In this document: piece by piece, positions 39,460-64,000 of the stretch
How positions within the stretch are numbered: the stretch's first letter is position 1
Layout of the letters: the number at the start of each line of letters is the position of its first letter
NCBI GenBank assembly: GCA_002310055.1
Contig: DBXS01000031.1
Coordinates: forward strand, 93,572 to 157,571
Source: Clostridiales bacterium UBA1206
GTDB taxonomy: Bacteria; Bacillota; Clostridia; Oscillospirales; CAG-382
Direction: 5' to 3'
Length of the DNA: 64,000 nt
Notes under the pieces: model-generated
Told to the model about the DNA's origin: nothing
What the model saw: only the letters and a program-made list of their open reading frames with translations
Database searches by the model: none
Translations under genes and position numbers: made by a program

Positions 39460-40413
39460 TCATTTGCCGAAAACGGCGTAGCCGCCGAGATCGGGCTCGC
39501 CCCACAGTTCTTCGTAATCCGCGCCCAGATAGCACGCGAACGTGGTTACCGTGCCGAAGCCGAGAGCTTCGTAAAATTCAAGGTCGCGCTTGATGAGTTC
39601 GGGGTCGGCGTTCAGTTTTTTGGGCGGCTTTTGCCAGCCGGAAAACATAGAATTATCCAGCCAGTATTCCAGCACCTTGCCGTCGCTTGCGCCGAAGAAC
39701 GCCGCGAGCTCGCGCGCGTTGCGCGCGGAAGACGCGTTTTCGGGGCAAGACATAGGTTTGTGAAAATCGCGGTCGAACGGCGCGTATTCGAGATAGATCC
39801 CGTCTTCGGGTTCCACGGACGAAGGAAGCTCAGTAGCGCCGCAGTAGGCGAGGTACGACTGCCTTCCCAGGATATCGGCGCGCCTGACTCCGCGCTGCAC
39901 GGCATTATACACCGCAAGCGCCTGATCGGACGCCGAAAGGCGCGAGCATTCCGGGCAATGACAGCATTTGTCGCGCACGTCGTCCAGCCAGAAGCAGTAG
40001 CGGTGGGTGGAGGACGGCAGCTTTTTCGCGAGTTCGCACGCGTTTTGCGAAATGATCTCGAGCGCGTCTTTATTTGAAGCGCAGCAGTTGTAATCGGCGT
40101 TCCTGCCGCCGTTTTCGTCGAGCCGGAAATATTCCGGATGTGCGCCGAACAGTTCACGCGGGAGCAGCAGCGACATAACGTGCAGTTCGTATTCAAGCCC
40201 CACGCCGTGAGACATGAGTTCACGCACCGTTTCCGCCGCGGAAGCTTCGAAGCCGTGCTCGGCGAGCTCGCGCACGCGCTCGTGCGAGCCTCCGCCGCCG
40301 ACGGGATGTATGCCGAGTATATCGATATCGGAACCGAGTATGACTTTTTTCCAGGTCTGCGTTATCTCGTCCGGGTGGACGACAACGCCTTTGTGCAGTA
40401 TCAAACGTATCAC
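39460..40413 (-). CDS. DUF4838-like (glycoside-hydrolase-like TIM barrel) protein, cytoplasmic
   Basis: About 315 aa. 'HPEYFRL...NCCASN...YCFWLDDVRDKCCHCPECS' parallels 'HPEWYAL...QFCYSN...WNEHFCECDKCKS' in the neighbouring lipoprotein. The start is uncertain (GTG 40413 or TTG 40404). Confidence 0.6.
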   Translation of the reverse strand: MIRLILHKGVVVHPDEITQTWKKVILGSDIDILGIHPVGGGGSHERVRELAEHGFEASAAETVRELMSHGVGLEYELHVMSLLLPRELFGAHPEYFRLDENGGRNADYNCCASNKDALEIISQNACELAKKLPSSTHRYCFWLDDVRDKCCHCPECSRLSASDQALAVYNAVQRGVRRADILGRQSYLAYCGATELPSSVEPEDGIYLEYAPFDRDFHKPMSCPENASSARNARELAAFFGASDGKVLEYWLDNSMFSGWQKPPKKLNADPELIKRDLEFYEALGFGTVTTFACYLGADYEELWGEPDLGGYAVFGK

Positions 40414-40464: not shown

Positions 40465-40493
40465 TTGACATACGCCGTTTTTTTTATTATAAT
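40465..40493 (+). promoter_or_regulatory. consensus sigma-70 promoter for the DUF4838 lipoprotein gene
   Basis: TTGACA (40465-40470), a 17-nt spacer, then TATAAT (40488-40493). Confidence 0.65.
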
Positions 40494-40525
40494 TGGAATA
40501 TCAACTTACAAAAGGTGGATTGTAT

Positions 40526-42292
40526 ATGAAAAGAGCGATTTCCCTTCTTGCTCTGCTGCTCGCGCTCGTTATGGCGCTTCAGCTGGTTTCGTGCGGCGGA
40601 GCAAGCGAAGAAAGCGGCGCGGTGTCGGAAGAGCCGTCTGCCGAAGACAGCTCGGAGGAGGTTTCGGAAGTTATGAGAGATCCCGGTTTTGAAATGCTCA
40701 AGGACGGCGTGCTGCTCTGTGACATCGTGATCGCTTCGGACGCGGTATCCAAAGAGACCGCCGCGGCGAAGGATCTGCGCAAATATATAAAGAAAATGAC
40801 CGGCACCGAACCCAAGATAGTGCGCGAAAGCAAAAAGACCGACGACGTAAAACACATCTATGTGGGCAAAACGCTCCGCTCAGAAGAGCTGGGCATCGAA
40901 AAGCCGACCGGTTACCCCGGCGTCGAGCGCGTGATAGTCGCTCAACGCGAAGGCGATCTGTTCGTGCTCGGCAACGACGACGGCAACTACAACGGCACGC
41001 AGTTCGCGGTCAATATGCTGCTCGAGCATCTGGGCTGCGGCTGGTTCGGCGAAGGCGAGCTGTGGGAAGTCGTTCCCGAACTTACGGATATCGACCTCAC
41101 CGGGCTCAAGATCGACCACTCGCCGCGCTTCAATTCGCGCATCACGCGCGTTTACAGCGGCGACTGGCAGGTGGCTGACAAGTGGTACCTGGGCGGCAAC
41201 AAATCGCTGACCGGGCACTGGCTGTTCCAGATAGCGCCCGCTTCGATGTATTCCAAGCATCCCGAATGGTACGCGCTCACCAAAAAAGGCACGCGCGACC
41301 CGGCGGGGCTGGATTATTTCCAGTTCTGCTATTCCAACGACGAGTTCGCCGAATACGTGGCGCAGAAGCTGGACGATTATTTCGCTTCGCATTCCGACCT
41401 GATCTCTATGACTATAGCTTACAACGACGGCTGGAACGAGCATTTCTGCGAATGCGACAAATGCAAGTCGCTGGGCAATCAGTCCGACGTGCTGGTCCAC
41501 TTTGCGAACAAGGTGGCAAAGCAGATATACGAAAAATATCCCGACCGCACGCTGCAGATATATTCCTACCATATGACGTATAAACCGCCGATAAACAGCG
41601 TAAAGCTGGAACCGAACGTTGAGCTTATGCTCTGCCGCGAAACAAGTATGACCAAGCCGCTCGACATAGATTATTACAGGGCCGGCTACGATAACATCAC
41701 CCGCAACACCTACGACAAATCCTGGCGCCAGAACGCTATGGAATGGATAGAAAAGACTCAGCCGCAGCACATTTCCGTTTGGGACTGGTACTGCATTGCG
41801 GCAGGCGATTCCAACTGGAAGACCATACCGTGGGTACAGGGCAACGTCGCCACGCGCAACCAGGATCTGTGGGAGGAAATGGGCGTTGAATACATATTCT
41901 ACGATCAGGGTCCCGCGGACGGATATCTGGAAGACGCGTCCTCGTTCGACCTGCGCTGGCCGCTGTGGTACGTGGCTTCGCGTTCGATGTGGGGCACCGA
42001 CATGACAGGCGAGGAACTTCTGCACGACGCGTGCGTCAAGCTTTTCGGCGCCGCCGCGGAACCGATGTTCAACTATTATAAAAAGCTTGCGGAAATAAGC
42101 GAAAACAGCGACGAATACAGTATGACGTGGGTCCCCGCCAACGTGAGGAGATTCTACGTAAAATACAAAGACGAACTAATTGAGCTGACCGAGGCGATAA
42201 AAGAAGCGCGCCGCGACTGCACCAAGATAGAGAAAGAACGCATAAACAATCAGCTCGTCTACTGGGCGGAACTGCTCAATAAGATAAAATAA
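40526..42292 (+). CDS. DUF4838-like lipoprotein (putative glycoside hydrolase-like)
   Basis: 588 aa from the ATG at 40526. It has signal/lipobox 'LLALLLALVMALQLVSC', a Ser/Glu linker and 'DGWNEHFCECDKCKSLG'. The family assignment is from memory. Confidence 0.65.
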   Translation: MKRAISLLALLLALVMALQLVSCGGASEESGAVSEEPSAEDSSEEVSEVMRDPGFEMLKDGVLLCDIVIASDAVSKETAAAKDLRKYIKKMTGTEPKIVRESKKTDDVKHIYVGKTLRSEELGIEKPTGYPGVERVIVAQREGDLFVLGNDDGNYNGTQFAVNMLLEHLGCGWFGEGELWEVVPELTDIDLTGLKIDHSPRFNSRITRVYSGDWQVADKWYLGGNKSLTGHWLFQIAPASMYSKHPEWYALTKKGTRDPAGLDYFQFCYSNDEFAEYVAQKLDDYFASHSDLISMTIAYNDGWNEHFCECDKCKSLGNQSDVLVHFANKVAKQIYEKYPDRTLQIYSYHMTYKPPINSVKLEPNVELMLCRETSMTKPLDIDYYRAGYDNITRNTYDKSWRQNAMEWIEKTQPQHISVWDWYCIAAGDSNWKTIPWVQGNVATRNQDLWEEMGVEYIFYDQGPADGYLEDASSFDLRWPLWYVASRSMWGTDMTGEELLHDACVKLFGAAAEPMFNYYKKLAEISENSDEYSMTWVPANVRRFYVKYKDELIELTEAIKEARRDCTKIEKERINNQLVYWAELLNKIK

Positions 42293-47562: not shown

Positions 47563-49245
47563 ATGAAAGGAAGCGCGGTCCGAGCGATCGCCAACGGTAC
47601 GGATATTATGAAAAGAATCGCATCTTTAATCATCGCCGCCGCGCTGACGGCTTCCCTGCTTTGCGCCTGCGCTTCGCCGGGCGAAGACGTATCTGACGCC
47701 GAAGAAGCAAGCGGCGAAAGCGCCGTCTCCGCCGAAAGCGCGCCCGAAGACGTATCCGGAATCATGTCGGAGCCGGAGGAGGAAAGCGGGACGGAAATCG
47801 TCGAAAAAGACTGGCCCGTGCTCACCGGCACGTTCATCCAGCCGTATCTGCTCAATTCGTTTTCCGATAAAAAAATGCAGAAGCACTGCGACTATCTGCT
47901 GGAAGCAGGCATTGACACCATCATCCTCCAGTGGTCGCTCGACGACAAAGACGGCGTCGTGACCGGCGCGTATTATCCCTGCGGGCTCAGCGAAAACGGA
48001 AAGATATATTCCTCGGTCGCGGACCGTCTGCTCAAGACCTGCGAAGCAAAAGGGATGAAAGTCGTAATGGGACTCAACAACCCCGACACGTGGTTTTCCA
48101 AGGTGCTTGAAGACGTTGAATGGTACGAGCGCGAAGCCGATCTGGGCGTGCGCGCAGCGCGCGAGATATACGCGCTTTACAAGGAAAAATACCCGAACGC
48201 GCTTTACGCTTGGTATTTTACGCCCGAGTATTACAGCGGCATGGGCAAAAACGACCGCGCCGCGGATTTTCTGAACCTTTACATAGATCCGCTCAACGAG
48301 CTCGACCCTGCGATGCCCGTGTACTTTTCGCCGTTTCTGAAGAGCAGCGTCACTCCCGCCGAGACCGAACGGCAGTGGACCGAGATATTCTCGCTCACGC
48401 ATTTCAGGCCGGGCGACGTGTTCATGCCGCAGGATTCGGTGGGCGCGGGCGGAATACAGCTTTCGGAGCTGGATACGTATTTCGCCGCACTGAAACGCGC
48501 GGTAGACACCTGCCCGGGCCTTGTGTTTATGGCGAACAACGAATGCTTCACCGGCAGCTACAAAGCCGCGCCTTTCGACCGCGTGGCGAAGCAGATAATC
48601 ATAAGCGGCAAGTACGTGAGCGGCAACGTCACGTTCGCGTATTCGCACTACGTTTCGCCCGACGTGACGGGCAATCCCGCGCTGCACGAAGAATACGTGC
48701 GCTACTATGAGACGGGCGAATACGACGTGCCCGAGACCGAGCCGCGTTTATCGTACGACGGCCCCAAAACGATGGTCTCGCTGGGTAAGCCCTACACCGG
48801 AGCGGTGAGCTCGCGCGGGGACGGCTGGGACGACGACGGCGTCAAGCTGACCGACGGCGACATACCCGGCTGCAGCGGCAACACACACGCGTATTTCGGC
48901 GCGAGCTGCAAGGGCGCAGAGATAATAATAGATCTGGGCGAAGCGACCGAAAACATTTCGGAATTCGCGCTTTACACCTGTTTCGGCAGCTGGGGCATCA
49001 ACAGCCCCGACAGCGTGACCTACTACGTTTCGGAAGACGGCGAAAACTGGACCCCTGCGGGCGGCACGGTGTATTCGTATATGCTCGAATTCGCCGAAAA
49101 GACCGACGAATGGTCGCTTTACGATTTTAAGCTCGTTTCTTCCGCCCCGTTACGCGGCAGATACGTAAAGGCTTCTGTCGACTGCAACGGCTGGCTCTGG
49201 ATAAGCGAGTTCGCGGTCTACACCTACGACGCCGAGGAAAGCTGA
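47563..49245 (+). CDS. secreted or lipid-anchored DUF4434-like glycoside-hydrolase-like protein with a C-terminal F5/8-type-C (CBM32-like) module
   Basis: Signal 'MKRIASLIIAAALTASLLCAC', a Ser/Glu linker, 'LTGTFIQPYL' and the C-terminal 'KLTDGD...RGRYVKASV...WISEFAVY'. The start is ATG 47563 or ATG 47608. Confidence 0.7.
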   Translation: MKGSAVRAIANGTDIMKRIASLIIAAALTASLLCACASPGEDVSDAEEASGESAVSAESAPEDVSGIMSEPEEESGTEIVEKDWPVLTGTFIQPYLLNSFSDKKMQKHCDYLLEAGIDTIILQWSLDDKDGVVTGAYYPCGLSENGKIYSSVADRLLKTCEAKGMKVVMGLNNPDTWFSKVLEDVEWYEREADLGVRAAREIYALYKEKYPNALYAWYFTPEYYSGMGKNDRAADFLNLYIDPLNELDPAMPVYFSPFLKSSVTPAETERQWTEIFSLTHFRPGDVFMPQDSVGAGGIQLSELDTYFAALKRAVDTCPGLVFMANNECFTGSYKAAPFDRVAKQIIISGKYVSGNVTFAYSHYVSPDVTGNPALHEEYVRYYETGEYDVPETEPRLSYDGPKTMVSLGKPYTGAVSSRGDGWDDDGVKLTDGDIPGCSGNTHAYFGASCKGAEIIIDLGEATENISEFALYTCFGSWGINSPDSVTYYVSEDGENWTPAGGTVYSYMLEFAEKTDEWSLYDFKLVSSAPLRGRYVKASVDCNGWLWISEFAVYTYDAEES

Positions 49246-51332: not shown

Positions 51333-52502
51333 ATGGAAAAATTCAACGTAGGTATTATCGGTCTCGGCTGCCGCGGCAGCTGGGCGGTGAAGGATATACT
51401 CACCGAGCGCGAAGACGTAAACGTGACGTTCGTCTGCGACGAATACGAAGACCGCACCGAGGAAAGCAAAGCGGTCGTGGAAAAGAAGCAGGGGCACACT
51501 CCGCACACTTCGCTCGACTGGCACGACGTCGTCAACTCGCCCGACGTGGACGTGGTGGTGAACTGCACCGCGTGGGAAGGGCACGTGCCCATAAGCACCG
51601 CCGCGATGGAGGCGGGCAAGCCCGTGGCTATGGAAGTAGGCGGCGCGTATCAGCTTGACGAATGCTACCGGCTGGTGGATACATATAAAAAAACAGGCAT
51701 CCATTGCATGATGCTTGAAAACTGCTGTTTCAACCGCGAAGAGCTTATGGTCCTCAATATGGTGCAGCAGGGGCTCTTTGGCAAAATAGTGGCGTGCAGC
51801 GGCGGGTATCAGCACGACTTGCGCGAAGAGATAACTTTCGGCCGCGAAAACCGTCATTACAGACTGCGCAACTACAAGGCGCGCAATACCGATAACTACC
51901 CGACCCACGAACTGGGCCCCATAGCAAAAGTCCTTGACCTGGGCCACGGCAACAGGATGAAATATCTCGTTTCGATGGCGACGGGCAGCTGGGGACTGAA
52001 CGACTACGCCCGGCGCAACGAAAAAGCGGATCCCGAACTGAGGGATTACAAATTCCATCAGGGCGACATAGTAAAGACCCTGATAATGTGCGAAGGCGGC
52101 GAGACCGTAACGCTCACGCTCGACACCACCCTGCCCCGCAGCTATTCGCGCGGGTTCACGGTGCGCGGCACCCGCGGCGCCTATTTCGAAGACGGCGACG
52201 GCGTGTTCCTCGACGGCGTGAACAACGAATGGGACAAGAGCTTTTACAACAACAAGCAGCAGTTCTTTGAAAAATACGACCATCCGCTGTGGCAAAAAGG
52301 CGGCGCGCTGGATTTCCGCGGCGGACACGGCGGCATGGACTGGCTGGTGTACGACGAATTCTTCCGCTACGTGCGCACCGGGAACACCCCCTGGATCGAC
52401 ACCTACGACACCGCTTCGTGGATGAGCATTACCCCGCTCGCCGCAAAGTCTATAGAAAACGGCTCCGCACCCGTCGAGATCCCCGATATGCGGGAAATAT
52501 GA
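51333..52502 (+). CDS. Gfo/Idh/MocA-family NAD-dependent oxidoreductase (GH109-like)
   Basis: 389 aa with Rossmann fold 'NVGIIGLGCRGSW' and 'MLENCCF'. The length and blocks resemble GH109 alpha-N-acetylgalactosaminidase-type proteins, but there is no signal peptide. Confidence 0.75.
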   Translation: MEKFNVGIIGLGCRGSWAVKDILTEREDVNVTFVCDEYEDRTEESKAVVEKKQGHTPHTSLDWHDVVNSPDVDVVVNCTAWEGHVPISTAAMEAGKPVAMEVGGAYQLDECYRLVDTYKKTGIHCMMLENCCFNREELMVLNMVQQGLFGKIVACSGGYQHDLREEITFGRENRHYRLRNYKARNTDNYPTHELGPIAKVLDLGHGNRMKYLVSMATGSWGLNDYARRNEKADPELRDYKFHQGDIVKTLIMCEGGETVTLTLDTTLPRSYSRGFTVRGTRGAYFEDGDGVFLDGVNNEWDKSFYNNKQQFFEKYDHPLWQKGGALDFRGGHGGMDWLVYDEFFRYVRTGNTPWIDTYDTASWMSITPLAAKSIENGSAPVEIPDMREI

Positions 52503-52519
52503 ATACAGTCAAAAACAGG

Positions 52520-52548
52520 AACGCCGCGCAGCAAAACTGCGCGGCGTA
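52520..52548 (+). repeat. direct repeat copy 1 (29 bp, identical to 54713-54741)
   Basis: aacgccgcgcagcaaaactgcgcggcgta. The flanks are also similar (aaaacagN...N tttt). Confidence 0.95.
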
Positions 52549-52553
52549 GTTTT
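52521..52553 (+). terminator. intrinsic terminator after the GH109-like gene
   Basis: A perfect 11-bp stem acgccgcgcag / ctgcgcggcgt with a 5-nt loop, followed by agtttt. Confidence 0.8.
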
Positions 52554-52642
52554 GAAAAAGTATAATAAAAATATACTTCCCGTAAACGCCGAATTGTGGA
52601 ACGTTGCTAAGAAAATACTGCAAATTTGGTCAATTATGTCTA

Positions 52643-52672
52643 TTGACATTCTGTTACTATCAAGTGTATAAT
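52643..52672 (+). promoter_or_regulatory. sigma-70 promoter (extended -10) for the AT-rich island genes
   Basis: TTGACA (52643-52648), an 18-nt spacer, then TGtTATAAT (52664-52672), 54 nt upstream of the ATG at 52727. Confidence 0.6.
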
Positions 52673-52726
52673 TTATAGGGAGGAAAGTATTTAACAGAAT
52701 GGCTATGTGAACTGAAAGGAGTAAAT

Positions 52727-53854
52727 ATGAAAAAAGTATTATCTTTTACGATTTGCGTTTTGTTGCTTGTTCAAATCTCTTTCGTTTGTATTCCTTTAGC
52801 AGTAGCAGCTTTGCCCAGCACACTTTCTCAGAATAAAGTTTACTTAATTAAGAACGCAGCAACAGATATGTATCTTGGCCAGAGCGGTTTGGATTTAACG
52901 CCCTGTTTTGCTTCCACAAACACTTTAACGTATGGCCCGAATCAACTTTTCCGGCTGACTGAGTCAGGAGGCTCAGGCTTGATTATGCCTATGACCACCT
53001 GTTCAAACAGTTTGACTTCAAATCTGGCGCTCAGTTATTACAACAACGGGCAAAATAATCTTGGCTATTTTGTATATTTTACCACCGCGTCTGTTTCAAC
53101 TTTTTGGACAATTACAAAACTTAACAACGGGAATTATACGATACGTTCCACATACTATGGTAATAGCAGCAATTATTTGTCCATCCAATCGTCATCAGGA
53201 AACGTCGTGGTTTCTTCCTACAGCGGCGCATACTCCGAATGGATAATTACTGAAATCATCAACGATATGTACTTTAATAGTGGTTATACTTATTTGTCAC
53301 AACCAAGTAATGTATGTGCAAAAAGTACAGCTGATGTTGAATCTTTGTTTACAACAAACGTGCTTTTAGGCACACAAGACTGGAATGGTTATTCCGAAAA
53401 TGTCAACGTCACTTATCTTAACCATACCCAATCTATTCCTTCCGGAAAAAATGATCTAATAACCATTTCATCGGATTACAATAACCAACTACCAGAAGAT
53501 GCTTTGGGATGTGCATGCCCTGTAATTGCTTTTTCTGTCCAATATAATCCGAGTGAAATATCATTAAACAGTAATTGGCAGTTTGTGTTTATTTATTTGA
53601 ATTATGACGAAATATCTAGCCATAATTATTCCGACACTGCCCTAAGAGCGATTGTTGCTCACGAAACCGGTCATTGTTTAAAACTCAAACATACTGTCGG
53701 CGGCGAAATATACAATGCCAGGTATATCCCTTCAATTATGCAATTAAGTATTGATGTTTTTGATGGATATACGTATGTATATGCCTATTACTATTATTCT
53801 GCATATCATCCAACTACATATAATATTCATTCTTTAATCAATAAATGGAATTAA
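52727..53854 (+). CDS. secreted two-domain protein with an N-terminal beta-trefoil/ricin-B-like region and a C-terminal metzincin zinc protease
   Basis: Signal peptide 'MKKVLSFTICVLLLVQISFVCIPLAVAA'. The extended zinc motif 'HETGHCLKLKH' (aa 312-322, nt 53660-53692) is followed by a Met-turn-like 'PSIMQ'. The N-terminal half has three 'hydrophobic-x-W/F' pseudo-repeats ('QLFRL', 'TFWTITK', 'SEWIITE'). The composition is AT-rich. Confidence 0.75.
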   Translation: MKKVLSFTICVLLLVQISFVCIPLAVAALPSTLSQNKVYLIKNAATDMYLGQSGLDLTPCFASTNTLTYGPNQLFRLTESGGSGLIMPMTTCSNSLTSNLALSYYNNGQNNLGYFVYFTTASVSTFWTITKLNNGNYTIRSTYYGNSSNYLSIQSSSGNVVVSSYSGAYSEWIITEIINDMYFNSGYTYLSQPSNVCAKSTADVESLFTTNVLLGTQDWNGYSENVNVTYLNHTQSIPSGKNDLITISSDYNNQLPEDALGCACPVIAFSVQYNPSEISLNSNWQFVFIYLNYDEISSHNYSDTALRAIVAHETGHCLKLKHTVGGEIYNARYIPSIMQLSIDVFDGYTYVYAYYYYSAYHPTTYNIHSLINKWN

Positions 53855-53876
53855 GTATTTAGAAAGGAGTTTGTAT

Positions 53877-54695
53877 ATGAATACCAACAGATTTTTAGCT
53901 ATTATATGTGCGCTTATCACGGTTATGACGCTTTTCTTATCAGCTTGTGAAAAAGCCGATGATCCGTCGCTTGATGACACGGATCCTGTCTTGACTGCCG
54001 CATCGGATAAGCCGATCGTATCTGTATTAGGAAATCAAGACGTTTCAGTTACTCCGATCGTTTCAACGGTCTGCGACGATTTTGAATACCCTTTGGAAAA
54101 CCGCACCGAAAACCAGATCCTGCCTGATTTCGGCAATGTCAAAAACGGGCTTGATATGTGCACGGTGGTCAGTTTTAAGGATGCAGACGATTTGCTGGCA
54201 AGGAGACTGCAGCAAGACGGAGCCATAGTGACCGGCAGAAAAATATCTTGCGTAAGTTACAGCAAATTTGAAAAAACAGTATATTATGAATTTCACGAAG
54301 GCGTAAAAGGAGATATCATAAGATACTACACGATCACCCGCTTTCTGGTCGAAAACGTAGCCGAAGGGCAAGGTATCAAAGCCGGCGATATAATTACGAT
54401 CATAGAAGACTATTCGTTCCTCGACGACGGGAGCGCATATCAAATGGTGCCGCTTTACGCACCGCCGATATACGAAAACGAAGAATATCTTATAATTATC
54501 TCGCCCGACGAACACGAGTATATAAACGTCGAAAACGCCTGGGACGTCAGAGCCGCTATCCTTATCGACGAATTCAGCAGGAACTACGAACAGTATTCGA
54601 TAGAAGAAGCATTGAGATTCGAACAAAAGAGAGGATATTTTGCTAGGTTCGATATCGCCAAAGAGATGATCAAACGTTTTGTAGACGGAAAATAA
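53877..54695 (+). CDS. lipoprotein of unknown function, co-transcribed with the metzincin gene
   Basis: AAAGGAG sits 7 nt before the ATG at 53877. Signal/lipobox 'FLAIICALITVMTLFLSAC'. 272 aa with no recognisable motif. Confidence 0.65.
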   Translation: MNTNRFLAIICALITVMTLFLSACEKADDPSLDDTDPVLTAASDKPIVSVLGNQDVSVTPIVSTVCDDFEYPLENRTENQILPDFGNVKNGLDMCTVVSFKDADDLLARRLQQDGAIVTGRKISCVSYSKFEKTVYYEFHEGVKGDIIRYYTITRFLVENVAEGQGIKAGDIITIIEDYSFLDDGSAYQMVPLYAPPIYENEEYLIIISPDEHEYINVENAWDVRAAILIDEFSRNYEQYSIEEALRFEQKRGYFARFDIAKEMIKRFVDGK

Positions 54696-57064: not shown

Positions 57065-57126
57065 ATCAGCATGGCGCGCGGCAATTACCGCCGCCGTGAT
57101 ATTTTACTTTGACAAGGAGACATCCA

Positions 57127-59130
57127 ATGAAACTTACCTGGAAAGAAAAATGCGATATCCTGGCTCAGGATATGTGTATGCGTCATCTTTTCGACACCCT
57201 TTGTCTTATGGATCAGGAATTCGCCGTATGGCTCGAAGACGGCGAAGTAAAGACATATGATTACAAATATCTTAAATCACACGCGCTCGCATGCGCCGAA
57301 AATATAGAAAAGATAGGTCTGGGCGAACCCGGCGGCTGGACCGGGATCGCGGTGGACACCTGCAAGGAATGGCCGATATTCTTCTGGGGGCTGCTCGCCG
57401 CCGGGAGGAACGCGCTGCTTCTGGATCCGTCGCTCGACGACGCCGGAATAGCTCATCTTATGAAACAGGCCGGCGCCAAATCGCTCATCACGCGCCGCAA
57501 ACGCGAACTCGACATACAGCAGATCGCTCCTGAAGAAGCGCTCGGTGCCGCCGACGCACCAAGCGAGGGTTACGAGCCGCACTGGGCGGATCTCATAGCC
57601 GCCTGCACCTCCGGCACCACAAGCACTTCGCGCGTGTACGTTTACAACGGCGAGGCGGTATGCCGTCAGATAATCGGCTTTGCGCAGCACGAAAAATACC
57701 CCTGCCTCACCTCCGAAGAATTCGGACCGCTGAGAGTCGTGGCGTTCCTGCCCTTCAACCATATATTCGGGCTCATCGCCAACCTTATCACCATGCCGTT
57801 CCAGAACCAGTCGCAGATATTCCTTAAAGACCGCGCGCCGCAGACCATACTCGAGACAGCGCGCAAATGCGACGCCAAAGTCATACTCACCGTTCCCCTG
57901 CTAGTCAATTCCATTTCCTCCACCATAAAAAAGCGAGTATCGCAGCAGTCGGCGTTCAAGCGCGGCGCTTTCAAGGTGATGCAGAGCATTTCGCTCACAT
58001 GCCAGCGCATCAACCCGCTTTGGGGGCTGAAGGTAGGCAAAAAGCTTTTCAAATCGGTCAACAAGAACCTGTTCGGCGACCAATTCATGGAATTCGTCGT
58101 GGGCGGCGCGCACACTCCCGAAGAGCATCTGCGCACCGTGAACTCGCTGGGCTACGCCGTGACCGTGGGGTTCGGCATGACCGAGACCGCCATAACTTCC
58201 TACGAAAACAAGATCGATCTCAAGACCCGCCTTTCGGGCAGCGTGGGACTTCCCCTCCCCATAACCGAATACAAGGTCCGCCCCGACGGGAACGATCCCA
58301 GACACGGCGAACTGCTCATCCGCTGCAACGCCATGCACATAGGCCGTATGGATAACGGCGTGATGGTGCCGCCCGTGGTCGACGAGGACGGCTATTTCGC
58401 CACAGGCGACGTGGTCCGCATAGGCGATAAGGGCAGGATGTGGATCGAAGGCCGCATAAAGGACGTCATCATAGGCGAATCCGGCGAAAACGTCTACCCC
58501 GACGAGATAGAAGACACCTTCGCGGGGATGGAGGGCGTGGAACAGCTGGCGGTGTTCTGCACAAAGCCCGGCGAGACCGAGCTTGTGACCGCAATGTTCA
58601 ACGTCGGCGACAAATATAACGACAAAGAATACATAGCTTCGCTCGTCGCGGAGGTCGACAAACGCAACAAGACTCTGCAGCCGCTCAAACGGCTCAAGGC
58701 GGCGTACATCACTTCCAATGCGCTGCCCGTGGTGAGCTCGATCAAGATCAAGCGCGCCGCATTGCGCGAAGGCATAGAAAAAGGCACTTTCGCCTGCAAA
58801 CGCATAGCGCTGGGCGGGGTCGAATACAACGAAGAGATCAAGCCCGCCGGCGAAGCCGCGTCCGTGCCGGAAGGCGAGGATCTGGAAGAACTCAAGGCAA
58901 AGATAAAAACCTGCTTTGCCAAAGAGTTGGAGATCGACGAATCGCTCATAAAAGACGATTCCACGTTTGCCGACGAGCTGGGCGGCGACAGTCTGCACCG
59001 CCTGGGCGCTCTGCTCAGGGTGGAAGAGGAATTCGGCGTGAAGATACCCGAAAACGCATACGAATACTGCACCACCGTGAACGATCTCGCCGCGCTTATC
59101 AAAGACCTGCGCGAAAAGAAAGCGCGGTAA
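57127..59130 (+). CDS. AMP-dependent synthetase/ligase fused to a C-terminal phosphopantetheine carrier domain (A-T didomain)
   Basis: 667 aa from the ATG at 57127, 7 nt after AAGGAGA. ANL cores present are 'CTSGTTSTSRV' (A3), 'GFGMTET' (A5), 'GDVVRIGDKGRMWIEGRIKDVI' (A7/A8) and 'SSIKIKRAAL' (A10 Lys). The carrier motif is 'ELGGDSLHRLGALL' (Ser622, nt 58990). Confidence 0.85.
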   Translation: MKLTWKEKCDILAQDMCMRHLFDTLCLMDQEFAVWLEDGEVKTYDYKYLKSHALACAENIEKIGLGEPGGWTGIAVDTCKEWPIFFWGLLAAGRNALLLDPSLDDAGIAHLMKQAGAKSLITRRKRELDIQQIAPEEALGAADAPSEGYEPHWADLIAACTSGTTSTSRVYVYNGEAVCRQIIGFAQHEKYPCLTSEEFGPLRVVAFLPFNHIFGLIANLITMPFQNQSQIFLKDRAPQTILETARKCDAKVILTVPLLVNSISSTIKKRVSQQSAFKRGAFKVMQSISLTCQRINPLWGLKVGKKLFKSVNKNLFGDQFMEFVVGGAHTPEEHLRTVNSLGYAVTVGFGMTETAITSYENKIDLKTRLSGSVGLPLPITEYKVRPDGNDPRHGELLIRCNAMHIGRMDNGVMVPPVVDEDGYFATGDVVRIGDKGRMWIEGRIKDVIIGESGENVYPDEIEDTFAGMEGVEQLAVFCTKPGETELVTAMFNVGDKYNDKEYIASLVAEVDKRNKTLQPLKRLKAAYITSNALPVVSSIKIKRAALREGIEKGTFACKRIALGGVEYNEEIKPAGEAASVPEGEDLEELKAKIKTCFAKELEIDESLIKDDSTFADELGGDSLHRLGALLRVEEEFGVKIPENAYEYCTTVNDLAALIKDLREKKAR

Positions 59131-59180: not shown

Positions 59181-59966
59181 TCAAGTAAGCGGGTATTCCG
59201 ACGGGAACAGCACGTGGCGGAGCAGATACACCGCGTCGTCGCTGGTGACGAAACCGTCGCCGGTGAAATCGGCGGTGGCGACGGGGTCTTCGATATTATA
59301 AGACGCGGGGAACAGCACGTAGCGGAGCAGATACACCGCGTCGCCGCTGTCCACGTCGCCGTCGCGGTCGACGTCGCCGCGCTGATACTGCGCGCCGGCT
59401 GTGACGGTGACGGTCACGCCCGTGCCGGCGTAAAGCTGGGAAACTTCGATATCGGCGTTAAGGCCGTAACGGACGTCGAACACCTCGAAAACGTGCGGCG
59501 CAGTAAGGTCCGAGCCGGGGGTCTGCAGATACGGTATGGTGACGCTTTGCCCCGAGGCGAACAGGTTGCGCTTTTGCCCCGTGCCTTTGAGGATACTTTC
59601 CACGGTGACCCAGTCAATATAGCAGAATTCCACCACGCCGGGCGTGGTTGAAACGAGGATGAGCTGATCTTCGATAGCCGCCGGGAAGTTCGACGCCACG
59701 GGCGTGACGATATAGCCCGAACCCGTGGGGATGGAGAACGCCGAAGTGTCGTACCTGAGCTTGAAACGGACGCAGGTGATGTAGTTATCTACTTCTACGG
59801 CGGGCACGGATTCCAGCGTGAGTTTGAGACCGCCGCCGGCGCCTTCTACAAATTCAAATCCCACGGAAAGTCCGCTCTGCTCCGCGGCAAAGACCGAACC
59901 GAGCGCCAGCAGCGCCACGATGACGAAAGCCGCAGCGGCGGCAGCCGCCCTTTTGAATAATGCCAT
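59181..59966 (-). CDS. small secreted protein with a cohesin-like N-terminal module and a C-terminal dockerin
   Basis: 261 aa from the ATG at 59966. Signal 'MALFKRAAAAAAAFVIVALLALGSVFA'. 'LKLTLESVPAVEVDNYITCVRFKLRYDTSAFSI' resembles the cohesin 'fkisYD...' strand pattern (tentative). Dockerin 'GDVDRDGDVDSGDAVYLLRYVLFP...ADFTGDGFVTSDDAVYLLRHVLFP'. Confidence 0.6.
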   Translation of the reverse strand: MALFKRAAAAAAAFVIVALLALGSVFAAEQSGLSVGFEFVEGAGGGLKLTLESVPAVEVDNYITCVRFKLRYDTSAFSIPTGSGYIVTPVASNFPAAIEDQLILVSTTPGVVEFCYIDWVTVESILKGTGQKRNLFASGQSVTIPYLQTPGSDLTAPHVFEVFDVRYGLNADIEVSQLYAGTGVTVTVTAGAQYQRGDVDRDGDVDSGDAVYLLRYVLFPASYNIEDPVATADFTGDGFVTSDDAVYLLRHVLFPSEYPLT

Positions 59967-60240
59967 ATCCGTCCCCCTTTCCGCAAAGCAGAGCTTTTCA
60001 AAAATCAGTATAATGATTATACCATCTGCCGCGGGGTTTGTCAATAGACAAGATACCCGTTGAGACATCTTTGAGCGAAAAACCGCTTTTATGCTTGAAA
60101 TATGGCGAAAATCTATATATTTTGCTATTGCTTTTTTTATTGCTTTGCTGTATTATTATGTACAATAGTATAAGAATGCCGTTTTTTACCGGCCGACTGT
60201 CGCCGGCGCCGCTTACGGCGCGCGCGACGTGATTAGTTTT

Positions 60241-62520
60241 ATGATAGCCTTAAAGAAATTCTCCCCTTCCGTTGTCGCCTTTTTCGGCGAAAAAGGCATT
60301 GCCGCTGACGAATGTCTTATGAGCTGCGAAAGCGACCTGGGGACCGACGGCGTGAGCAAAAACGTATACGCCGTAATCACAAAAGAAAAAATAGCAGTCG
60401 CCGAAGGCTTTATAGGTTTTGAAGGCAAAGCCAAGGCGAGCGCGAGGACCGAGATATTCACCTGCACCGCGTACCGAGAATTTCTGCTTGAAAAGTGCGA
60501 GGACGTAAGAGTAGAGCTATTCATTTCGGGCGGGCGCGCGGTCTGCGAATACGAAGGCGAGACCGCCGAGATCGCCCGCTTCACCTTCTCCTGCCGCCAC
60601 GACGTCAATATCCTTTGCGATATCGCCAATCAGCTCAAAAAGGACGGCAAGATAGACGAAGAAAAGCTTAAGCACGAAAACGAGGACGAGCATTTTTGCC
60701 CCAAGTGCCACCGCAGATATCCCGACCAGGACCGCAAGATCTGCCCCAAGTGTATGGAAAAGGCCAAGCTCGTAAAGCGCTTGCTCAAGATGTTCGTGAG
60801 GTATAAGTATTACATTATGCTCATACTGCTCACGTTCGCGCTCGTCGCGGGGCTCAGGGTCATAACGCCATACGTTTCGAACAAGATGTTCATAAGCGAC
60901 GTGCTCACCCCGGGCGGAAGCATGTACGGCGAAATAGGCAAGATACTGCTTATGATAGTGGGCGTGCGGCTTATATCGCTGCTCATTTCCATAGTGAACG
61001 GCATCATTTCGGCAAAAGTCGCCGCGGACGTGGTGTACGACTTAAAAAAGACCATATTCAACACCATAGGCGGCCTTTCGATGCGGTTCTTTTCCAACCG
61101 TCAGACCGGCGGACTTATGACGCAGATCAACTCCGACGCCACCGAGATCTACTGGTTCTTCTGCGACGGGTTCCCCTACCTGCTCACCAACATGGTACAG
61201 CTCCTGGTGGTGCTCGCCGTGATGCTGACGATGGATCCGCTGCTCACGCTTTTCACATTCATAACCATACCCGTGTTCTTTTTCACTTTCAAGATCACGT
61301 TCACCCTGTTCGAAAAGCTGCACGCAAGGGCGTATTCCAAGCGCCGCGCATACAATTCGCTCATCTCCGACGTGCTCAACGGTATGAGAGTGGTAAAATC
61401 CTTCTCACGCGAGGAGGAAGAGATGGGGCGTTTTCAGAAACGTTCCAAGGCGCAGGCAGACGCGCAGGAAAAGATAGGCGTCACCGCCAGCAAGACTTTC
61501 CGCACCATCGGCTTTATAATGAAGCTGGGTTCGTTCGTGGTCTGGGGTGTGGGCGGCTGGCAGATAATCCAGCATACCGGCGGTATGGACTACGGCAGGC
61601 TCGCCACTTTCGTGGCGTACGTGGCGATGATATACGACCCGCTCGATTTCTTCGCCGACATTTCCAACTGGTGGTCCGAATGCCTAAACGCGCTGCAGCG
61701 TCTGTTTGAGATAAACGATTCCATACCCGAGATAAAAGAAGCCGAAAATCCCGTAGACGCCGACGTGAAGGGCGACGTGGAGTTCGACGACGTGGTGTTT
61801 TCGTACGAGGAAAACCGCACGGTCATCGACCACGTTTCGTTCAAGGTGCCCGCGGGTTCGACGCTGGGCATAGTGGGTCACACCGGCGCCGGAAAATCCA
61901 CGCTTGCCAACCTGCTCACGCGGCTGTACGACCCCAACGAGGGCAGCATAAAGATCGACGGCGTGAATCTGAAGGATTATTCGTTCGACACGCTGCGTCG
62001 TTCCGTAGCCATAGTATCGCAGGAAACTTATCTGTTCCGCGGCACCATAATGGAAAACATCCGCTACGCGCGGCCCGACGCCACCAACGAAGAGATAATC
62101 AACGCGGCGAAGATCGCTTCGGCGCACGAATTCATAATAAAATATCCCGACGCGTACGAGACCGTGATAGGTTTCGGCGGCAAGGAGCTTTCAGGCGGCG
62201 AAAAGCAGCGTGTTTCGATAGCGCGCGCGGTGCTGAAAAACCCCGCCATACTCATACTCGACGAAGCGACCGCCGCGATGGACACGCAGACCGAGCGTTC
62301 GATTCAGGAAGCGCTTGAGAAGCTGACCAAGGACCGCACGACGATAATCATAGCGCACCGGCTTTCGACGTTACGCGAAGCGGACAAGCTCATAGTGCTT
62401 GACAAAGGAAAAATGCCCGAGGAAGGCACGGCGCAGGAGCTTTTGAAGAAGAAGGGCAAGTATTACGAGCTGTACAAAATGCAGCTCGAGGCCCTTAAGA
62501 CCATAGGTATTGAGGAATAA
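60241..62520 (+). CDS. ABC exporter half-transporter (TMD-NBD) with a cytoplasmic N-terminal module of about 190 aa ending in a zinc ribbon
   Basis: 759 aa from ATG 60241 (GTG 60229 is also possible). Zinc ribbon 'CPKCHRRYPDQDRKICPKC' (nt 60697-60753). A six-TM ABC_membrane domain, Walker A 'GHTGAGKST', signature 'LSGGEKQR', Walker B 'ILILDEAT' and H-loop 'IIAHRLST'. Confidence 0.9.
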   Translation: MIALKKFSPSVVAFFGEKGIAADECLMSCESDLGTDGVSKNVYAVITKEKIAVAEGFIGFEGKAKASARTEIFTCTAYREFLLEKCEDVRVELFISGGRAVCEYEGETAEIARFTFSCRHDVNILCDIANQLKKDGKIDEEKLKHENEDEHFCPKCHRRYPDQDRKICPKCMEKAKLVKRLLKMFVRYKYYIMLILLTFALVAGLRVITPYVSNKMFISDVLTPGGSMYGEIGKILLMIVGVRLISLLISIVNGIISAKVAADVVYDLKKTIFNTIGGLSMRFFSNRQTGGLMTQINSDATEIYWFFCDGFPYLLTNMVQLLVVLAVMLTMDPLLTLFTFITIPVFFFTFKITFTLFEKLHARAYSKRRAYNSLISDVLNGMRVVKSFSREEEEMGRFQKRSKAQADAQEKIGVTASKTFRTIGFIMKLGSFVVWGVGGWQIIQHTGGMDYGRLATFVAYVAMIYDPLDFFADISNWWSECLNALQRLFEINDSIPEIKEAENPVDADVKGDVEFDDVVFSYEENRTVIDHVSFKVPAGSTLGIVGHTGAGKSTLANLLTRLYDPNEGSIKIDGVNLKDYSFDTLRRSVAIVSQETYLFRGTIMENIRYARPDATNEEIINAAKIASAHEFIIKYPDAYETVIGFGGKELSGGEKQRVSIARAVLKNPAILILDEATAAMDTQTERSIQEALEKLTKDRTTIIIAHRLSTLREADKLIVLDKGKMPEEGTAQELLKKKGKYYELYKMQLEALKTIGIEE

Positions 62521-62525
62521 GCGAT

Positions 62526-63098
62526 ATGGAACACAAGAACGATTTTTTGAATATTGTAAAGATCGAATACCTTACCCCCGAAAACGCGAAGTTTTCCGAG
62601 ACCGCCAACGGGTTCCCCAGACTGGAGGCGTTCATACCCAAGGTGAAAAAGGACGACCTTGAAGAAAACTCCGGCGACGATACGCCCGTGTGGCAGGATC
62701 TGGGCAGGGTGTTCTTCCACCGCGCGTTCCCCTACGACAGCGCCGAAAATTTCATTTCGGTCACCGATAAGGAAGGCAACGAATACGGGCTGATACGCTC
62801 GCTTTCGGAATTCGACGGCGCGGGGCGCGAGATCATAGAGCGCGAGCTCAAACGCAAATACTACACTCCGGTCATAACAAAAATAAAATCCGTCAAAGAG
62901 CGGTTCGGGTATTCCTACTGGGAGGTCGAGACCGAAAGCGGGAGCGCCTCGTTCGCCATGCACGACACGTTCCGCAACACCGCGAAGATATCCGAAGAGC
63001 GCGTTGTGCTCACCGACGTCGACGGGAACAGATACGAAATAAAGGACGTTTTTGCGCTCGACCGCAAAAGCTACCGCAAGATAGAGCTTTATCTCTGA
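62526..63098 (+). CDS. DUF1854-like protein
   Basis: 190 aa. It lies 5 nt after the upstream ABC gene and 10 nt before the next. The C-terminal 'DVDGNRYEIKDVFALDRKSYRKIELYL' and central 'ISVTDKEGNEYGLIRSLSEFD' resemble DUF1854 as I remember it. Confidence 0.6.
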   Translation: MEHKNDFLNIVKIEYLTPENAKFSETANGFPRLEAFIPKVKKDDLEENSGDDTPVWQDLGRVFFHRAFPYDSAENFISVTDKEGNEYGLIRSLSEFDGAGREIIERELKRKYYTPVITKIKSVKERFGYSYWEVETESGSASFAMHDTFRNTAKISEERVVLTDVDGNRYEIKDVFALDRKSYRKIELYL

Positions 63099-63108
63099 AG
63101 GAATTCAT

Positions 63109-64000
63109 ATGTTACCGAGATTAAAGATCGATACTCATTATTACGACGACGCCATACGCCGCGCGGCCGAAGCGTTCGGCGCCGAGCCGCTGTTCGGGTT
63201 CAGGTTCGACCTGGACCGCGACAACGTCCCCTGCGCGGGGTACGGGTACGCAAACGCCGAAAAGGTGTGCGTATGCCGCGGCGAAGACGTCTTCACCGCC
63301 GAAACGGCGCGGATGGACGACATCGAATACGTACAGTATATCGGCTGCGCCGCGATAGAATACACGTTCGACGGCGAAAGGTACGAGCTTTGCAGGTCGG
63401 ATATGAAAAACGCCGTGGCGCTGCAGAACACCGTGAAGCGCCTGCGTTCGCTGCGCGAGGGCAAGGATATAGGTCATATAAGCGAAAACGAGGACGAGAC
63501 CGCCTGCCCGGTGTGCGGGACTCCGTACCGCGCGGGCTCTAAGATATGCCCCAACTGCGCCGACCGCAAAAAGCTGCTCACGCGGCTGCTCCCCGTGGCG
63601 AAGCCGCACGCGGTCCCTCTGCTGATAAGTCTGGTGCTGTATTTCGCGGGGGTCGGCTTAAGCATTTACAACGGTATGATCAACCGCACGCTGGTCGACG
63701 ACTATCTGCACACCGACACGCCGAAACAGGAAGGTTTCTGGTGGGTGATAGCCGTGATGGTGGGAGTGGCGCTGTTTTCGGCGCTGCTGCCGATGGTGCG
63801 CGGCATTATATTTGCAAAAGTGGGCAACCGCATAACGGTCAAGCTGCGCCGTGACGTTTACGAAAAGGTCCAGGCGATGTCGCTTTCGGGCATCAGCCGC
63901 CGCACCGCGGGCGAGATAATCACCCGCGTCACCTCGGATACCGACGTGATGCGCGAATTCCTCGTTTCGATACTCCCCGACGTGCTGCGGATTTCGCTGA
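63109..64000 (+). CDS. second ABC exporter half-transporter with a paralogous N-terminal module and zinc ribbon (3' end outside the window)
   Basis: Translated by hand from the ATG at 63109, since it is not in the ORF track. The sequence reads 'MLPRLKIDTHYYDD...ISENEDETACPVCGTPYRAGSKICPNCADRKKLLTRLLPVAKPH', then TM1 'AVPLLISLVLYFAGVGL' and ABC_membrane-like 'RRTAGEIITRVTSDTDVMREF'. The frame is open to the window end. Confidence 0.8.
   Translation, partial: MLPRLKIDTHYYDDAIRRAAEAFGAEPLFGFRFDLDRDNVPCAGYGYANAEKVCVCRGEDVFTAETARMDDIEYVQYIGCAAIEYTFDGERYELCRSDMKNAVALQNTVKRLRSLREGKDIGHISENEDETACPVCGTPYRAGSKICPNCADRKKLLTRLLPVAKPHAVPLLISLVLYFAGVGLSIYNGMINRTLVDDYLHTDTPKQEGFWWVIAVMVGVALFSALLPMVRGIIFAKVGNRITVKLRRDVYEKVQAMSLSGISRRTAGEIITRVTSDTDVMREFLVSILPDVLRISL

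What the first reader, a model, noticed from the sequence alone, without database searches (positions are those of the whole stretch)
60241..64000. ABC - DUF1854 - ABC cassette: a heterodimeric exporter with an embedded small soluble protein of unknown role
The three genes are separated by 5 and 10 nt. The first is a full TMD-NBD half-transporter, the second a 190-aa soluble DUF1854-like protein, and the third a second half-transporter that runs off the window. Both exporter halves carry extra N-terminal cytoplasmic domains (see the separate finding). My recollection, not verifiable here, is that RefSeq labels this gene triad 'cyanophycin metabolism-associated' purely by neighbourhood. I know of no biochemical function or substrate for it. 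No cphA or cphB is present in the 60 kb upstream. The architecture points to a regulated export or flipping machine rather than a generic multidrug pump.
Basis: partly seen in the sequence, partly recalled or inferred. Interest (0 to 1): 0.7.

Follow-up and report, generated by a model that had tools for sequence, protein, structure and literature searches.

The report
ABC exporter pair with DUF1854 subunit
Three tightly packed genes in a rumen Clostridia genome encode a two-part ABC export pump plus a small cytoplasmic DUF1854 partner protein; this trio is conserved in hundreds of gut Firmicutes, its cargo is unknown, and here it has no neighbourhood link to cyanophycin genes despite the database label carried by its nearest named relatives.

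Summary
ABC_A (60241-62520, 759 aa), a 190-aa DUF1854 protein (62526-63098; PF08909, E=1.3e-36) and ABC_C (63109 to beyond the window end; 732 aa in a contig identical over the shared genes) are separated by 5 and 10 nt.

The A-DUF1854-C order is kept in essentially every locus with enough flank. This holds in 80 species-level genomes and in 80 metagenome loci of a second, distant DUF1854 clade.

- Both halves carry an N-terminal domain that AlphaFold and Foldseek place with PH domains. A 4-Cys zinc ribbon follows, with all four Cys invariant.
- Both ATP sites are canonical.
- Natural fusions place DUF1854 at the C-terminus of the ABC protein, after the NBD.

NCBIfam does hold 'cyanophycin metabolism-associated' models, and they are the best hits. 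All three proteins score far below the cut-offs. No cphA or cphB was found in the window. No CphA was found within 10 kb in about 140 related loci, where neighbours are housekeeping genes.

Best reading: a dedicated heterodimeric exporter with DUF1854 as an obligate cytoplasmic subunit. Its substrate is unknown. I rate it a new variant of a known kind, of moderate interest.

The parts
60095..60123 (+). Candidate sigma-70-like promoter (TTGAAA-17-TATTTT) in the 172-nt intergenic region upstream of ABC_A. Weak evidence only.
   Evidence: (L001 7570-7598, which is window coordinate +52525), with the sequence. It matches 9 of 12 consensus positions. The number of such sites in the region is not above the shuffled expectation.
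60241..62520 (+). ABC_A, a 759-aa half-transporter. Layout: PH-like N-domain (res 1-150), 4-Cys zinc ribbon (res 153-171), type IV exporter TMD (res ~185-500), canonical NBD (res ~510-750).
   Evidence: Walker A, Q-loop, signature, Walker B D-E and H-loop are all 100% conserved in 64 orthologs.
60241..60690 (+). N-terminal cytoplasmic domain of ABC_A: helix 9-17, seven beta-strands 27-115, then a long C-terminal helix 116-135. This is PH-like topology.
   Evidence: AF2 gave pLDDT 88.6 and pTM 0.81. The top ~45 Foldseek PDB hits are nearly all PH domains, with prob 0.9-1.0, E 6e-3 to 0.1 and TM up to 0.5. No Pfam or PDB sequence match. The domain evolves fast: 31% identity where the NBD keeps 74%.
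60697..60753 (+). Zinc ribbon CPKC-x11-CPKC of ABC_A, immediately before TM1.
   Evidence: All four Cys are 100% conserved in 64 orthologs. Weak Pfam hit to the treble-clef finger zf-Tbcl_FmdE. The motif is also present in all 40 upstream ABCs of the distant clade.
62526..63098 (+). DUF1854 protein, 190 aa and soluble. It has two beta-rich subdomains, each ending in a helix (H98-111 and H180-187), an acidic loop at 39-53, invariant motifs GRVxxHRxFP, RKYxxP and DVDGNRY, and a C-terminal ELYL.
   Evidence: PF08909 E=1.3e-36. NF052234 scores 84.2, below the cut-off of 150. Alignment A1. AF2 pLDDT 86.4. No significant PDB match by sequence or fold.
63109..64000 (+). 5' part (297 of 732 codons) of ABC_C, the paralogous second half-transporter (36% identical to ABC_A over the full length). 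Layout in the window: N-domain res 1-128, zinc ribbon CPVC-x10-CPNC res 133-150 (nt 63505-63558), TMD from about res 160.
   Evidence: hhalign of N-domain A against N-domain C gives E=4e-4.

Best explanation
The three genes form one operon. It encodes a dedicated heterodimeric ABCB-type (type IV fold) exporter with a third, obligate cytoplasmic subunit.

Shown:
- Two paralogous half-transporters, each built as PH-like domain + 4-Cys zinc ribbon + 6-TM domain + NBD.
- Both nucleotide sites carry fully canonical catalytic motifs.
- A soluble two-subdomain DUF1854 protein is encoded between them with translationally coupled spacing.
- The trio is inherited as a unit across at least two deep Firmicutes clades.
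- Transcripts cover all three genes and span the A/DUF1854 junction.

Inferred:
- One DUF1854 docks on the cytoplasmic face of the A:C dimer, next to the NBD of ABC_A. In natural single-chain versions it is appended to the C-terminus after the NBD, and it is as conserved as the TMD, while the PH-like N-domains drift.
- It acts as a positive, required subunit, as its cofitness with the ABC gene in beta-proteobacteria indicates. The most likely role is recruiting or presenting a cytoplasmically made hydrophilic oligomer or polymer, or an envelope precursor, or coupling its binding to the ATPase cycle.
- The PH-like/zinc-ribbon modules form the docking or cargo platform under the membrane.

The cargo in this Clostridial clade is unknown. 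Gene neighbourhood does not tie it to cyanophycin synthetase. The housekeeping surroundings (hom, glyQS, gpsA, dnaE) suggest a core cell-envelope or physiological role rather than an accessory trait.
For: - Gene structure and domains.
- Conservation of the triad: 276 species-level genomes encode a relative. The order A-DUF1854-C is kept in essentially all of the 80 loci retrieved that have enough flank. The same holds in a clade only about 38% identical.
- Family-wide hallmarks: the zinc ribbon and canonical Walker A/B, signature and H-loop occur in both halves.
- Family size: 2009 clusters at 50% identity with E<=1e-3.
- Rosetta-stone fusions: N-extension + ABC_membrane + ABC_tran + DUF1854 in P0167, P0194, P0200, P0249 and P0250, and in locus L090.
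- Domain-wise conservation: DUF1854 57%, TMD 47-57%, NBD 72-74%, PH-like N-domains 27-31%.
- N-domain fold.
- Positive genetic requirement in relatives: Price et al..
- Transcription, with contigs crossing the A/DUF1854 junction.
- Nearest named family is NF052233/NF052234, about 80 bits ahead of MsbA.
- No conserved biosynthetic neighbour.
Against: - No direct evidence of physical interaction, stoichiometry or transport. AlphaFold-Multimer was not available.
- The DUF1854 fold has no significant structural match, so 'cargo adaptor' rests on analogy.
- Fusion position alone cannot separate an adaptor from a regulator.
- The cofitness data come from a single-ABC, cphA-linked subfamily in Proteobacteria and may not transfer.
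- No substrate clue emerges from the neighbourhood or from conserved TMD residues.
- Metatranscriptome contigs can contain DNA carry-over, and their depth is low.
Confidence: 0.6

Rival explanations
1. It is a true cyanophycin (or cyanophycin-like poly-amino-acid) exporter, as the NCBIfam name of the nearest family implies. The polymer synthetase would simply be encoded elsewhere in the genome.
For: NF052233 and NF052234 are the best NCBIfam hits for all three proteins. DUF1854 is cofit with cphA/cphA' in two beta-proteobacteria. Genome-wide absence of cphA could not be tested here.
Against: - Scores are far below the equivalog cut-offs: 498.6 and 536.9 against 880, and 84.2 against 150. All eight other DUF1854 representatives sampled also fall below (61-102 bits).
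- No CphA or cyanophycinase among the ORFs tested in the 64-kb window.
- No CphA in the 3.4 kb downstream.
- No CphA-like conserved or large neighbour within 10 kb in about 140 loci from two clades.
- The architecture differs: two ABC genes here against one there.
Confidence: 0.12
2. It is an ordinary heterodimeric multidrug or lipid efflux pump of the BmrCD / LmrCD / TM287-288 kind. DUF1854 would be a dispensable or inhibitory regulator of its ATPase, comparable to regulatory domains appended to importer NBDs.
For: The core is a standard ABCB-type exporter. The best solved relatives are ABCB1/ABCB4, Sav1866, TM288, TmrAB and MsbA. DUF1854 sits at the NBD C-terminus in fusions, the position of the MalK, ModC and MetN regulatory domains. 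There are faint, non-significant Foldseek hits to MalK.
Against: - Both ATP sites are canonical and invariant, unlike the degenerate-site heterodimers named above (from my own knowledge).
- Three extra modules are strictly co-inherited over deep divergence.
- DUF1854 is as conserved as the TMD.
- In beta-proteobacteria, loss of DUF1854 phenocopies loss of the transporter, so it acts positively.
- The setting is housekeeping genes, with no drug-responsive regulator conserved nearby.
Confidence: 0.15
3. The complex is not primarily a transporter. It would be an ABC-driven signalling or mechanotransmission device, with the PH-like/zinc-ribbon domains and DUF1854 as the output or sensor module.
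For: There are unusual cytoplasmic modules on both halves and no identifiable cargo genes nearby. Bacterial ABC systems that signal rather than transport exist, such as the BceAB and FtsEX types (from my own knowledge).
Against: Known mechanotransducing ABC systems use the type VII fold, not the PF00664 exporter fold (from my own knowledge). No kinase or regulator gene is conserved next to the triad. Relatives are genetically linked to a polymer synthetase.
Confidence: 0.05

Closest known systems
NCBIfam NF052233 / NF052234 'cyanophycin metabolism-associated ABC transporter / DUF1854 family protein', the cphA-cphA'-ABC-DUF1854 clusters of beta-proteobacteria (Price et al., bioRxiv 10.1101/072470)
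   Same: It pairs a DUF1854 protein with an ABCB-type exporter that has a long N-terminal extension; the HMM aligns from residue 88 of ABC_A and 67 of ABC_C, through the zinc ribbon. These models are the best-scoring named families for all three proteins.
   Different: All scores are well below the equivalog cut-offs. The window has two paralogous ABC genes flanking DUF1854 rather than one ABC gene. No cphA neighbour was found in about 140 loci. The DUF1854 protein here is about 40 aa longer at the N-terminus, with an acidic loop.
Heterodimeric type IV ABC exporters (TM287/288, TmrAB, BmrCD, LmrCD)
   Same: Two adjacent half-transporter genes, a PF00664 + PF00005 core, and strong sequence similarity (TM288 E=1.8e-95, TmrA-like E about 1e-91).
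   Different: Those have one degenerate ATP site and no N-terminal PH-like/zinc-ribbon domain or soluble third subunit (from my own knowledge). Here both sites are canonical, and PDB matches start only at residue ~174.
Wzm/Wzt O-antigen ABC exporter with a C-terminal carbohydrate-binding domain on the NBD (functional analogy, from my own knowledge)
   Same: A beta-rich module attached after the NBD recognises the polymer to be exported. DUF1854 occupies that position in the natural fusions.
   Different: It has a different transporter fold (type V), and no sequence or fold similarity was detected. This is an analogy only.
PCAT and HlyB-type exporters with an N-terminal C39 peptidase or C39-like cargo-binding domain
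   Same: An N-terminal cytoplasmic domain precedes the TMD of an ABCB-like exporter. NCBIfam HlyB and bacteriocin-exporter models hit the core.
   Different: The N-domain here is PH-like plus a zinc ribbon, not a C39 fold. There is no Peptidase_C39 Pfam hit, and no leader-peptide or T1SS partner genes lie nearby.

Membership tests
Pfam PF08909 (DUF1854) | Score above the Pfam gathering threshold over most of the model | tested here: met
   125.8 bits against 26.8; residues 62-187 match model positions 4-128 of 130.
NCBIfam NF052234, cyanophycin metabolism-associated DUF1854 protein (equivalog) | Score at or above the curated cut-off of 150 bits | tested here: not met
   84.2 bits. Eight other Firmicutes representatives score 61-102 bits.
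NCBIfam NF052233, cyanophycin metabolism-associated ABC transporter (equivalog) | Score at or above the curated cut-off of 880 bits | tested here: not met
   ABC_A 498.6 bits, full-length ABC_C 536.9 bits, natural fusion P0167 591.1 bits.
Cyanophycin-associated gene cluster | cphA (or cphA') or cyanophycinase in the neighbourhood | tested here: not met
   Window: every large ORF tested that has a Pfam match is something else (FtsK, dockerin proteins, M29, SBP and others), two have no match, and no S51 peptidase occurs among the 250-320-aa ORFs tested. Downstream are two membrane proteins and then glyQS. Across 80 + 80 related loci within 10 kb, the conserved or large neighbours are hom, glyQS, gpsA, dnaE, MutS, ClpC, Lon, PurL and FtsX.
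Cyanophycin-associated gene cluster | Genome-wide co-occurrence with cphA | not testable with these tools
Type IV (ABCB-like) ABC exporter half-transporter | PF00664 TMD followed by PF00005 NBD with Walker A, Q-loop, signature, Walker B D-E and H-loop | tested here: met
Degenerate-site heterodimeric exporters (TM287/288, BmrCD type) | One NBD lacks the catalytic Glu or His, or the partner has an aberrant signature | tested here: not met
   Both halves have D-E, AHRLST and LSGGE, invariant in 64 and 69 orthologs and present in 40 and 41 members of the distant clade.
PH-like domain fold (N-terminal domain) | Seven-stranded beta-sandwich capped by a C-terminal helix, with structural similarity to PH domains | tested here: inconclusive
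   The topology fits. Foldseek hits are almost exclusively PH domains with prob up to 1.0, but E is only 6e-3 to 0.1 and TM 0.34-0.5. There is no Pfam PH-family hit. The evidence rests on a predicted model.
Peptidase C39 / C39-like domain exporters (PCAT, HlyB) | N-terminal C39 fold | tested here: not met
   No C39 hit in Pfam. The N-domain model resembles PH domains.
Anti-phage defence systems (PADLOC) | Match of the specific components to a defence-system model | tested here: not met
   Only generic ATPase hits on the NBDs, and none for DUF1854.

The most novel reading that the evidence does not exclude
The PH/zinc-ribbon ABC pair plus DUF1854 is a previously unrecognised class of exporter. 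A soluble two-lobed subunit loads a cytoplasmically synthesised polymer or oligomer, not necessarily cyanophycin, onto a type IV ABC exporter. That would make it a general Firmicutes route for secreting a still-unidentified envelope or extracellular polymer, and the first soluble cargo-loading subunit known for this transporter fold.
Probability: 0.2. Interest if true: 0.75.

Novelty: new variant of a known kind. Interest (0 to 1): 0.5.

Why it matters
DUF1854-linked ABC exporters form a large family (about 2000 clusters at 50% identity), with no solved structure found by sequence search for either accessory module and no biochemistry found in the literature searched.

The only functional clue so far ties them to cyanophycin-synthetase-like genes in beta-proteobacteria, and that clue is now fixed in an annotation label. 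This window and its about 140 relatives show that the commonest Firmicutes form differs in three ways:
- it is a heterodimer with two active ATP sites;
- it has two PH-like/zinc-ribbon domains;
- it has no cphA neighbour.

So the 'cyanophycin' reading should not be spread by homology, and the core mechanism (what DUF1854 does at the NBDs) can be studied on its own. If DUF1854 proves to be a cargo-loading or coupling subunit, that would add a new accessory principle to type IV ABC exporters. It could also point to an unknown exported product that is common in rumen and gut Clostridia.

Tried and rejected
- PDB sequence searches with the DUF1854 protein, its profile A1 and the N-domain profile A2 gave nothing significant.
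- Foldseek of the DUF1854 model gave no hit with E<1e-3. The HIN-200, LolA, MalK and USP37-PH hits have TM about 0.2-0.35. I therefore do not claim a fold class for DUF1854, only 'two beta-rich lobes, each capped by a helix'.
- hhalign of the N-domains against DUF1854 or its halves showed no relationship. The idea that DUF1854 is a detached copy of the N-domain is unsupported at sequence level.
- The search for homologous proteins with the N-domain alone returned only 2 hits because of the word-index limit. I repeated it with N-domain + TMD.
- tblastn of DUF1854 against PLSDB plasmids, run to obtain an annotated cphA-linked example as a positive control, found no match.
- The broad alignment A3 was too diverse for the metagenome scan, so A4 was used.
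- The promoter/terminator scan was not above the shuffled expectation. No terminator was found inside the triad or directly after it.
- Conserved polar residues in the TMDs are not interpretable without a structure.
- PADLOC gave no defence-system match.
- Literature searches for PF08909, IPR015005, 'cyanophycin metabolism-associated' and 'cyanophycin export' found only Price et al. and the statement that no cyanophycin export process is known.
- The upstream AMP-binding-ACP gene was considered as a cargo-synthesis partner and rejected. It is separated by a divergent dockerin gene and is present near the triad in only 7 of 80 loci.
- The two downstream membrane-protein paralogs were considered as operon members and rejected as general parts. 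They are absent in the 97%-identical relative L014.


Full report
**Observation**

The window end carries three co-directional ORFs:
- ABC_A, 60241-62520, 759 aa;
- a 190-aa ORF, 62526-63098;
- ABC_C, from 63109 and running off the window.

The gaps are 5 and 10 nt. Shine-Dalgarno-like GAGGAA and GAAGGAA motifs precede the second and third starts.

Pfam finds ABC_membrane + ABC_tran in ABC_A, DUF1854 (PF08909, 125.8 bits, E=1.3e-36) in the middle ORF, and ABC_membrane from residue 171 in ABC_C. A Logan contig (L001) whose ABC_A and DUF1854 proteins are identical to the window's gives the full ABC_C, 732 aa. ABC_A and ABC_C are 36% identical along their whole length, N-terminal extensions included. 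The description is confirmed.

**Origin and transcription**

The sequence comes from bovine gut metagenomes. The closest genomes are uncultured rumen and gut Clostridia MAGs. Several dockerin proteins in the window fit a cellulosome-type organism.

Metatranscriptome contigs from bovine and gut samples cover parts of all three genes, and some cross the ABC_A/DUF1854 junction. This fits co-transcription, but depth is low and DNA carry-over cannot be excluded.

**Conservation**

The DUF1854 protein has 604 close homologs, all about 185-210 aa and from Clostridia or Eubacteriales. A scan of one genome per GTDB species found 276 species with a relative. In the 80 loci retrieved, the order ABC_A-DUF1854-ABC_C is kept wherever there is enough flank.

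An exhaustive HMMER search with the family profile found 2009 clusters at 50% identity with E<=1e-3. A second clade, about 38% identical to the window protein, was sampled from metagenomes. It shows the same ABC(~770-800 aa)-DUF1854-ABC(~730-750 aa) order.

**Neighbours**

In the first set the recurrent neighbours are all housekeeping genes:
- glycine-tRNA ligase downstream, in 42 loci;
- homoserine dehydrogenase upstream and divergent, in 31 loci;
- an AI-2E transporter, gpsA, an RpiR regulator, an HI0933-like flavoprotein and dnaE.

In the second set nothing but the two ABC genes recurs. The large neighbouring ORFs are MutS, ClpC, Lon, PurL, FtsX-type permeases and a GH2 enzyme.

No cyanophycin synthetase was seen. 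In the window, the only 877-aa ORF is FtsK. Every other large ORF tested, and every 250-320-aa ORF tested, that has a Pfam match is something other than CphA or an S51 cyanophycinase; several have no match at all.

**Relation to the 'cyanophycin' label**

NCBIfam does contain NF052233 (cyanophycin metabolism-associated ABC transporter) and NF052234 (cyanophycin metabolism-associated DUF1854 protein). They are the best hits, about 80 bits ahead of MsbA for the ABC halves. But the scores are 498.6 and 536.9 against a cut-off of 880, and 84.2 against a cut-off of 150. Eight other Firmicutes DUF1854 representatives also fall below. Source names for the orthologs are generic.

The one paper found on DUF1854 is Price et al., bioRxiv 10.1101/072470. 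It reports cofitness of DUF1854 with cphA, cphA' and a single ABC gene in Acidovorax and Cupriavidus. [quoted passage not shown] A 2023 cyanophycin paper states that no cyanophycin export process is known (PMC9974463).

So the window triad is a sister branch of the cphA-linked family, not a member of it.

**Anatomy of the ABC halves**

Walker A, Q-loop, signature, Walker B with the catalytic Glu, D-loop and H-loop are canonical in both halves. Apart from the D-loop of ABC_C, they are invariant or nearly so in 64 (A) and 69 (C) orthologs. In the distant clade, Walker A, Walker B D-E, signature and H-loop were checked and are present in the 40 and 41 members, apart from two downstream proteins that lack a recognisable signature. 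This differs from the degenerate-site heterodimers that are typical of Firmicutes drug pumps (my own knowledge).

Each half has a CxxC-x10-11-CxxC zinc ribbon just before TM1, with all four Cys invariant.

An AlphaFold2 model of ABC_A residues 1-182 (pLDDT 88.6, pTM 0.81) shows a short helix, seven strands and a long C-terminal helix, followed by the ribbon. Its Foldseek hits in the PDB are almost exclusively PH domains: TBC1D23, GRK2, RhoGEFs, SIN1 and Btk. Probabilities reach 1.0, but E-values are only 6e-3 to 0.1 and TM-scores 0.34-0.5. The fold is therefore PH-like but not proven.

No solved ABC structure covers this region; PDB matches start at about residue 174. The N-domains of A and C are recognisably paralogous (hhalign E=4e-4) but are not related in sequence to DUF1854.

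**Anatomy of DUF1854**

The AF2 model (pLDDT 86.4) has two beta-rich lobes, each ending in a helix (H98-111 and H180-187), and a low-confidence acidic loop around residues 41-50. There is no significant match in the PDB by sequence or by fold.

Invariant motifs are GRVxxHRxFP, RKYxxP, DVDGNRY and the C-terminal ELYL. No catalytic-looking constellation is evident, which favours a binding or adaptor role.

**Clues to how the parts fit**

Five representatives of 935-1013 aa, plus metagenome locus L090, are single chains of N-extension + TMD + NBD + DUF1854. This places DUF1854 at the cytoplasmic end, after the NBD of the upstream-type half.

Over 42 divergent orthologous triads, identity to the window is:

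| Part | Identity to window |
|---|---|
| DUF1854 | 57% |
| TMDs | 47-57% |
| NBDs | 72-74% |
| PH-like N-domains | 27-31% |

DUF1854 therefore behaves like a core subunit contacting conserved surfaces, while the PH-like domains are more plastic.

**Interpretation**

The best-supported reading is a dedicated heterodimeric exporter with DUF1854 as an obligate, positively acting cytoplasmic subunit. Its role would be to recruit cargo or to couple cargo binding to ATP hydrolysis. The cargo is unknown. The housekeeping context and strict vertical conservation point to a core envelope or physiology role.

Rivals, each with its refuting test in the Rival explanations section:
- a cyanophycin-like polymer exporter whose cphA lies elsewhere in the genome;
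- an ordinary drug or lipid pump with a regulatory add-on;
- a non-transport signalling device.

**Limits**

- No multimer prediction was possible.
- No genome-wide cphA profile was possible.
- No cphA-linked locus could be retrieved as a positive control for the neighbourhood survey.
- Gene calls in related loci came from a crude longest-ORF method. It sometimes chose antisense ORFs, which explains the 'noDUF' rows.

**Verdict**

This is a real, strongly conserved and uncharacterised system. It is already catalogued as DUF1854 and has one published genetic hypothesis for a sister branch. The heterodimeric, cphA-independent form with PH-like and zinc-ribbon domains is a new variant of a known kind. 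Interest is moderate, 0.5.

Noticed in passing
L001 12826-13764 and 13768-14733 (just beyond the window end, between ABC_C and glyQS): Two paralogous 312- and 321-aa proteins, each with a soluble N-terminal ~130 aa and a multi-TM C-terminal half. They have no significant Pfam match and no NCBIfam or PADLOC match. They are absent in the 97%-identical relative L014, where glyQS follows ABC_C directly, so this looks like a strain-specific insertion.
   Followed up: partly
window 57109-59130 (+): An AMP-binding adenylating enzyme fused to a C-terminal phosphopantetheine carrier domain. It is below all NCBIfam equivalog cut-offs. It lies near the triad in only 7 of 80 loci, so it is probably unrelated to the exporter.
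   Followed up: partly
window 59181-60068 (-), 11957-13963 (-), and about 60016-60044 (-): Type I dockerin proteins, pointing to a cellulosome-type rumen Clostridia. A perfect sigma-70 consensus TTGACA-17(TG)-TATAAT sits on the minus strand upstream of the 59181-60068 dockerin gene, divergent from the ABC operon.
   Followed up: no
window 52001-54000: GC falls to 0.42 against about 0.55 elsewhere. The ORFs there are 52727-53854 (weak ricin-B lectin hit) and 53871-54695 (no Pfam hit). The region is possibly horizontally acquired.
   Followed up: no
window 40493-42292, 39460-40413, 47563-49245, 51333-52502: A cluster of glycan-related proteins of unknown or little-known function: DUF4838 (two copies), DUF4434 and a GH109-like oxidoreductase.
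   Followed up: no
P0212 (287 aa, from the representative search): A protein with a Glyco_hydro_2 N-terminal sugar-binding domain followed by a partial DUF1854. It may be a real domain shuffle or an assembly or gene-call chimera.
   Followed up: no
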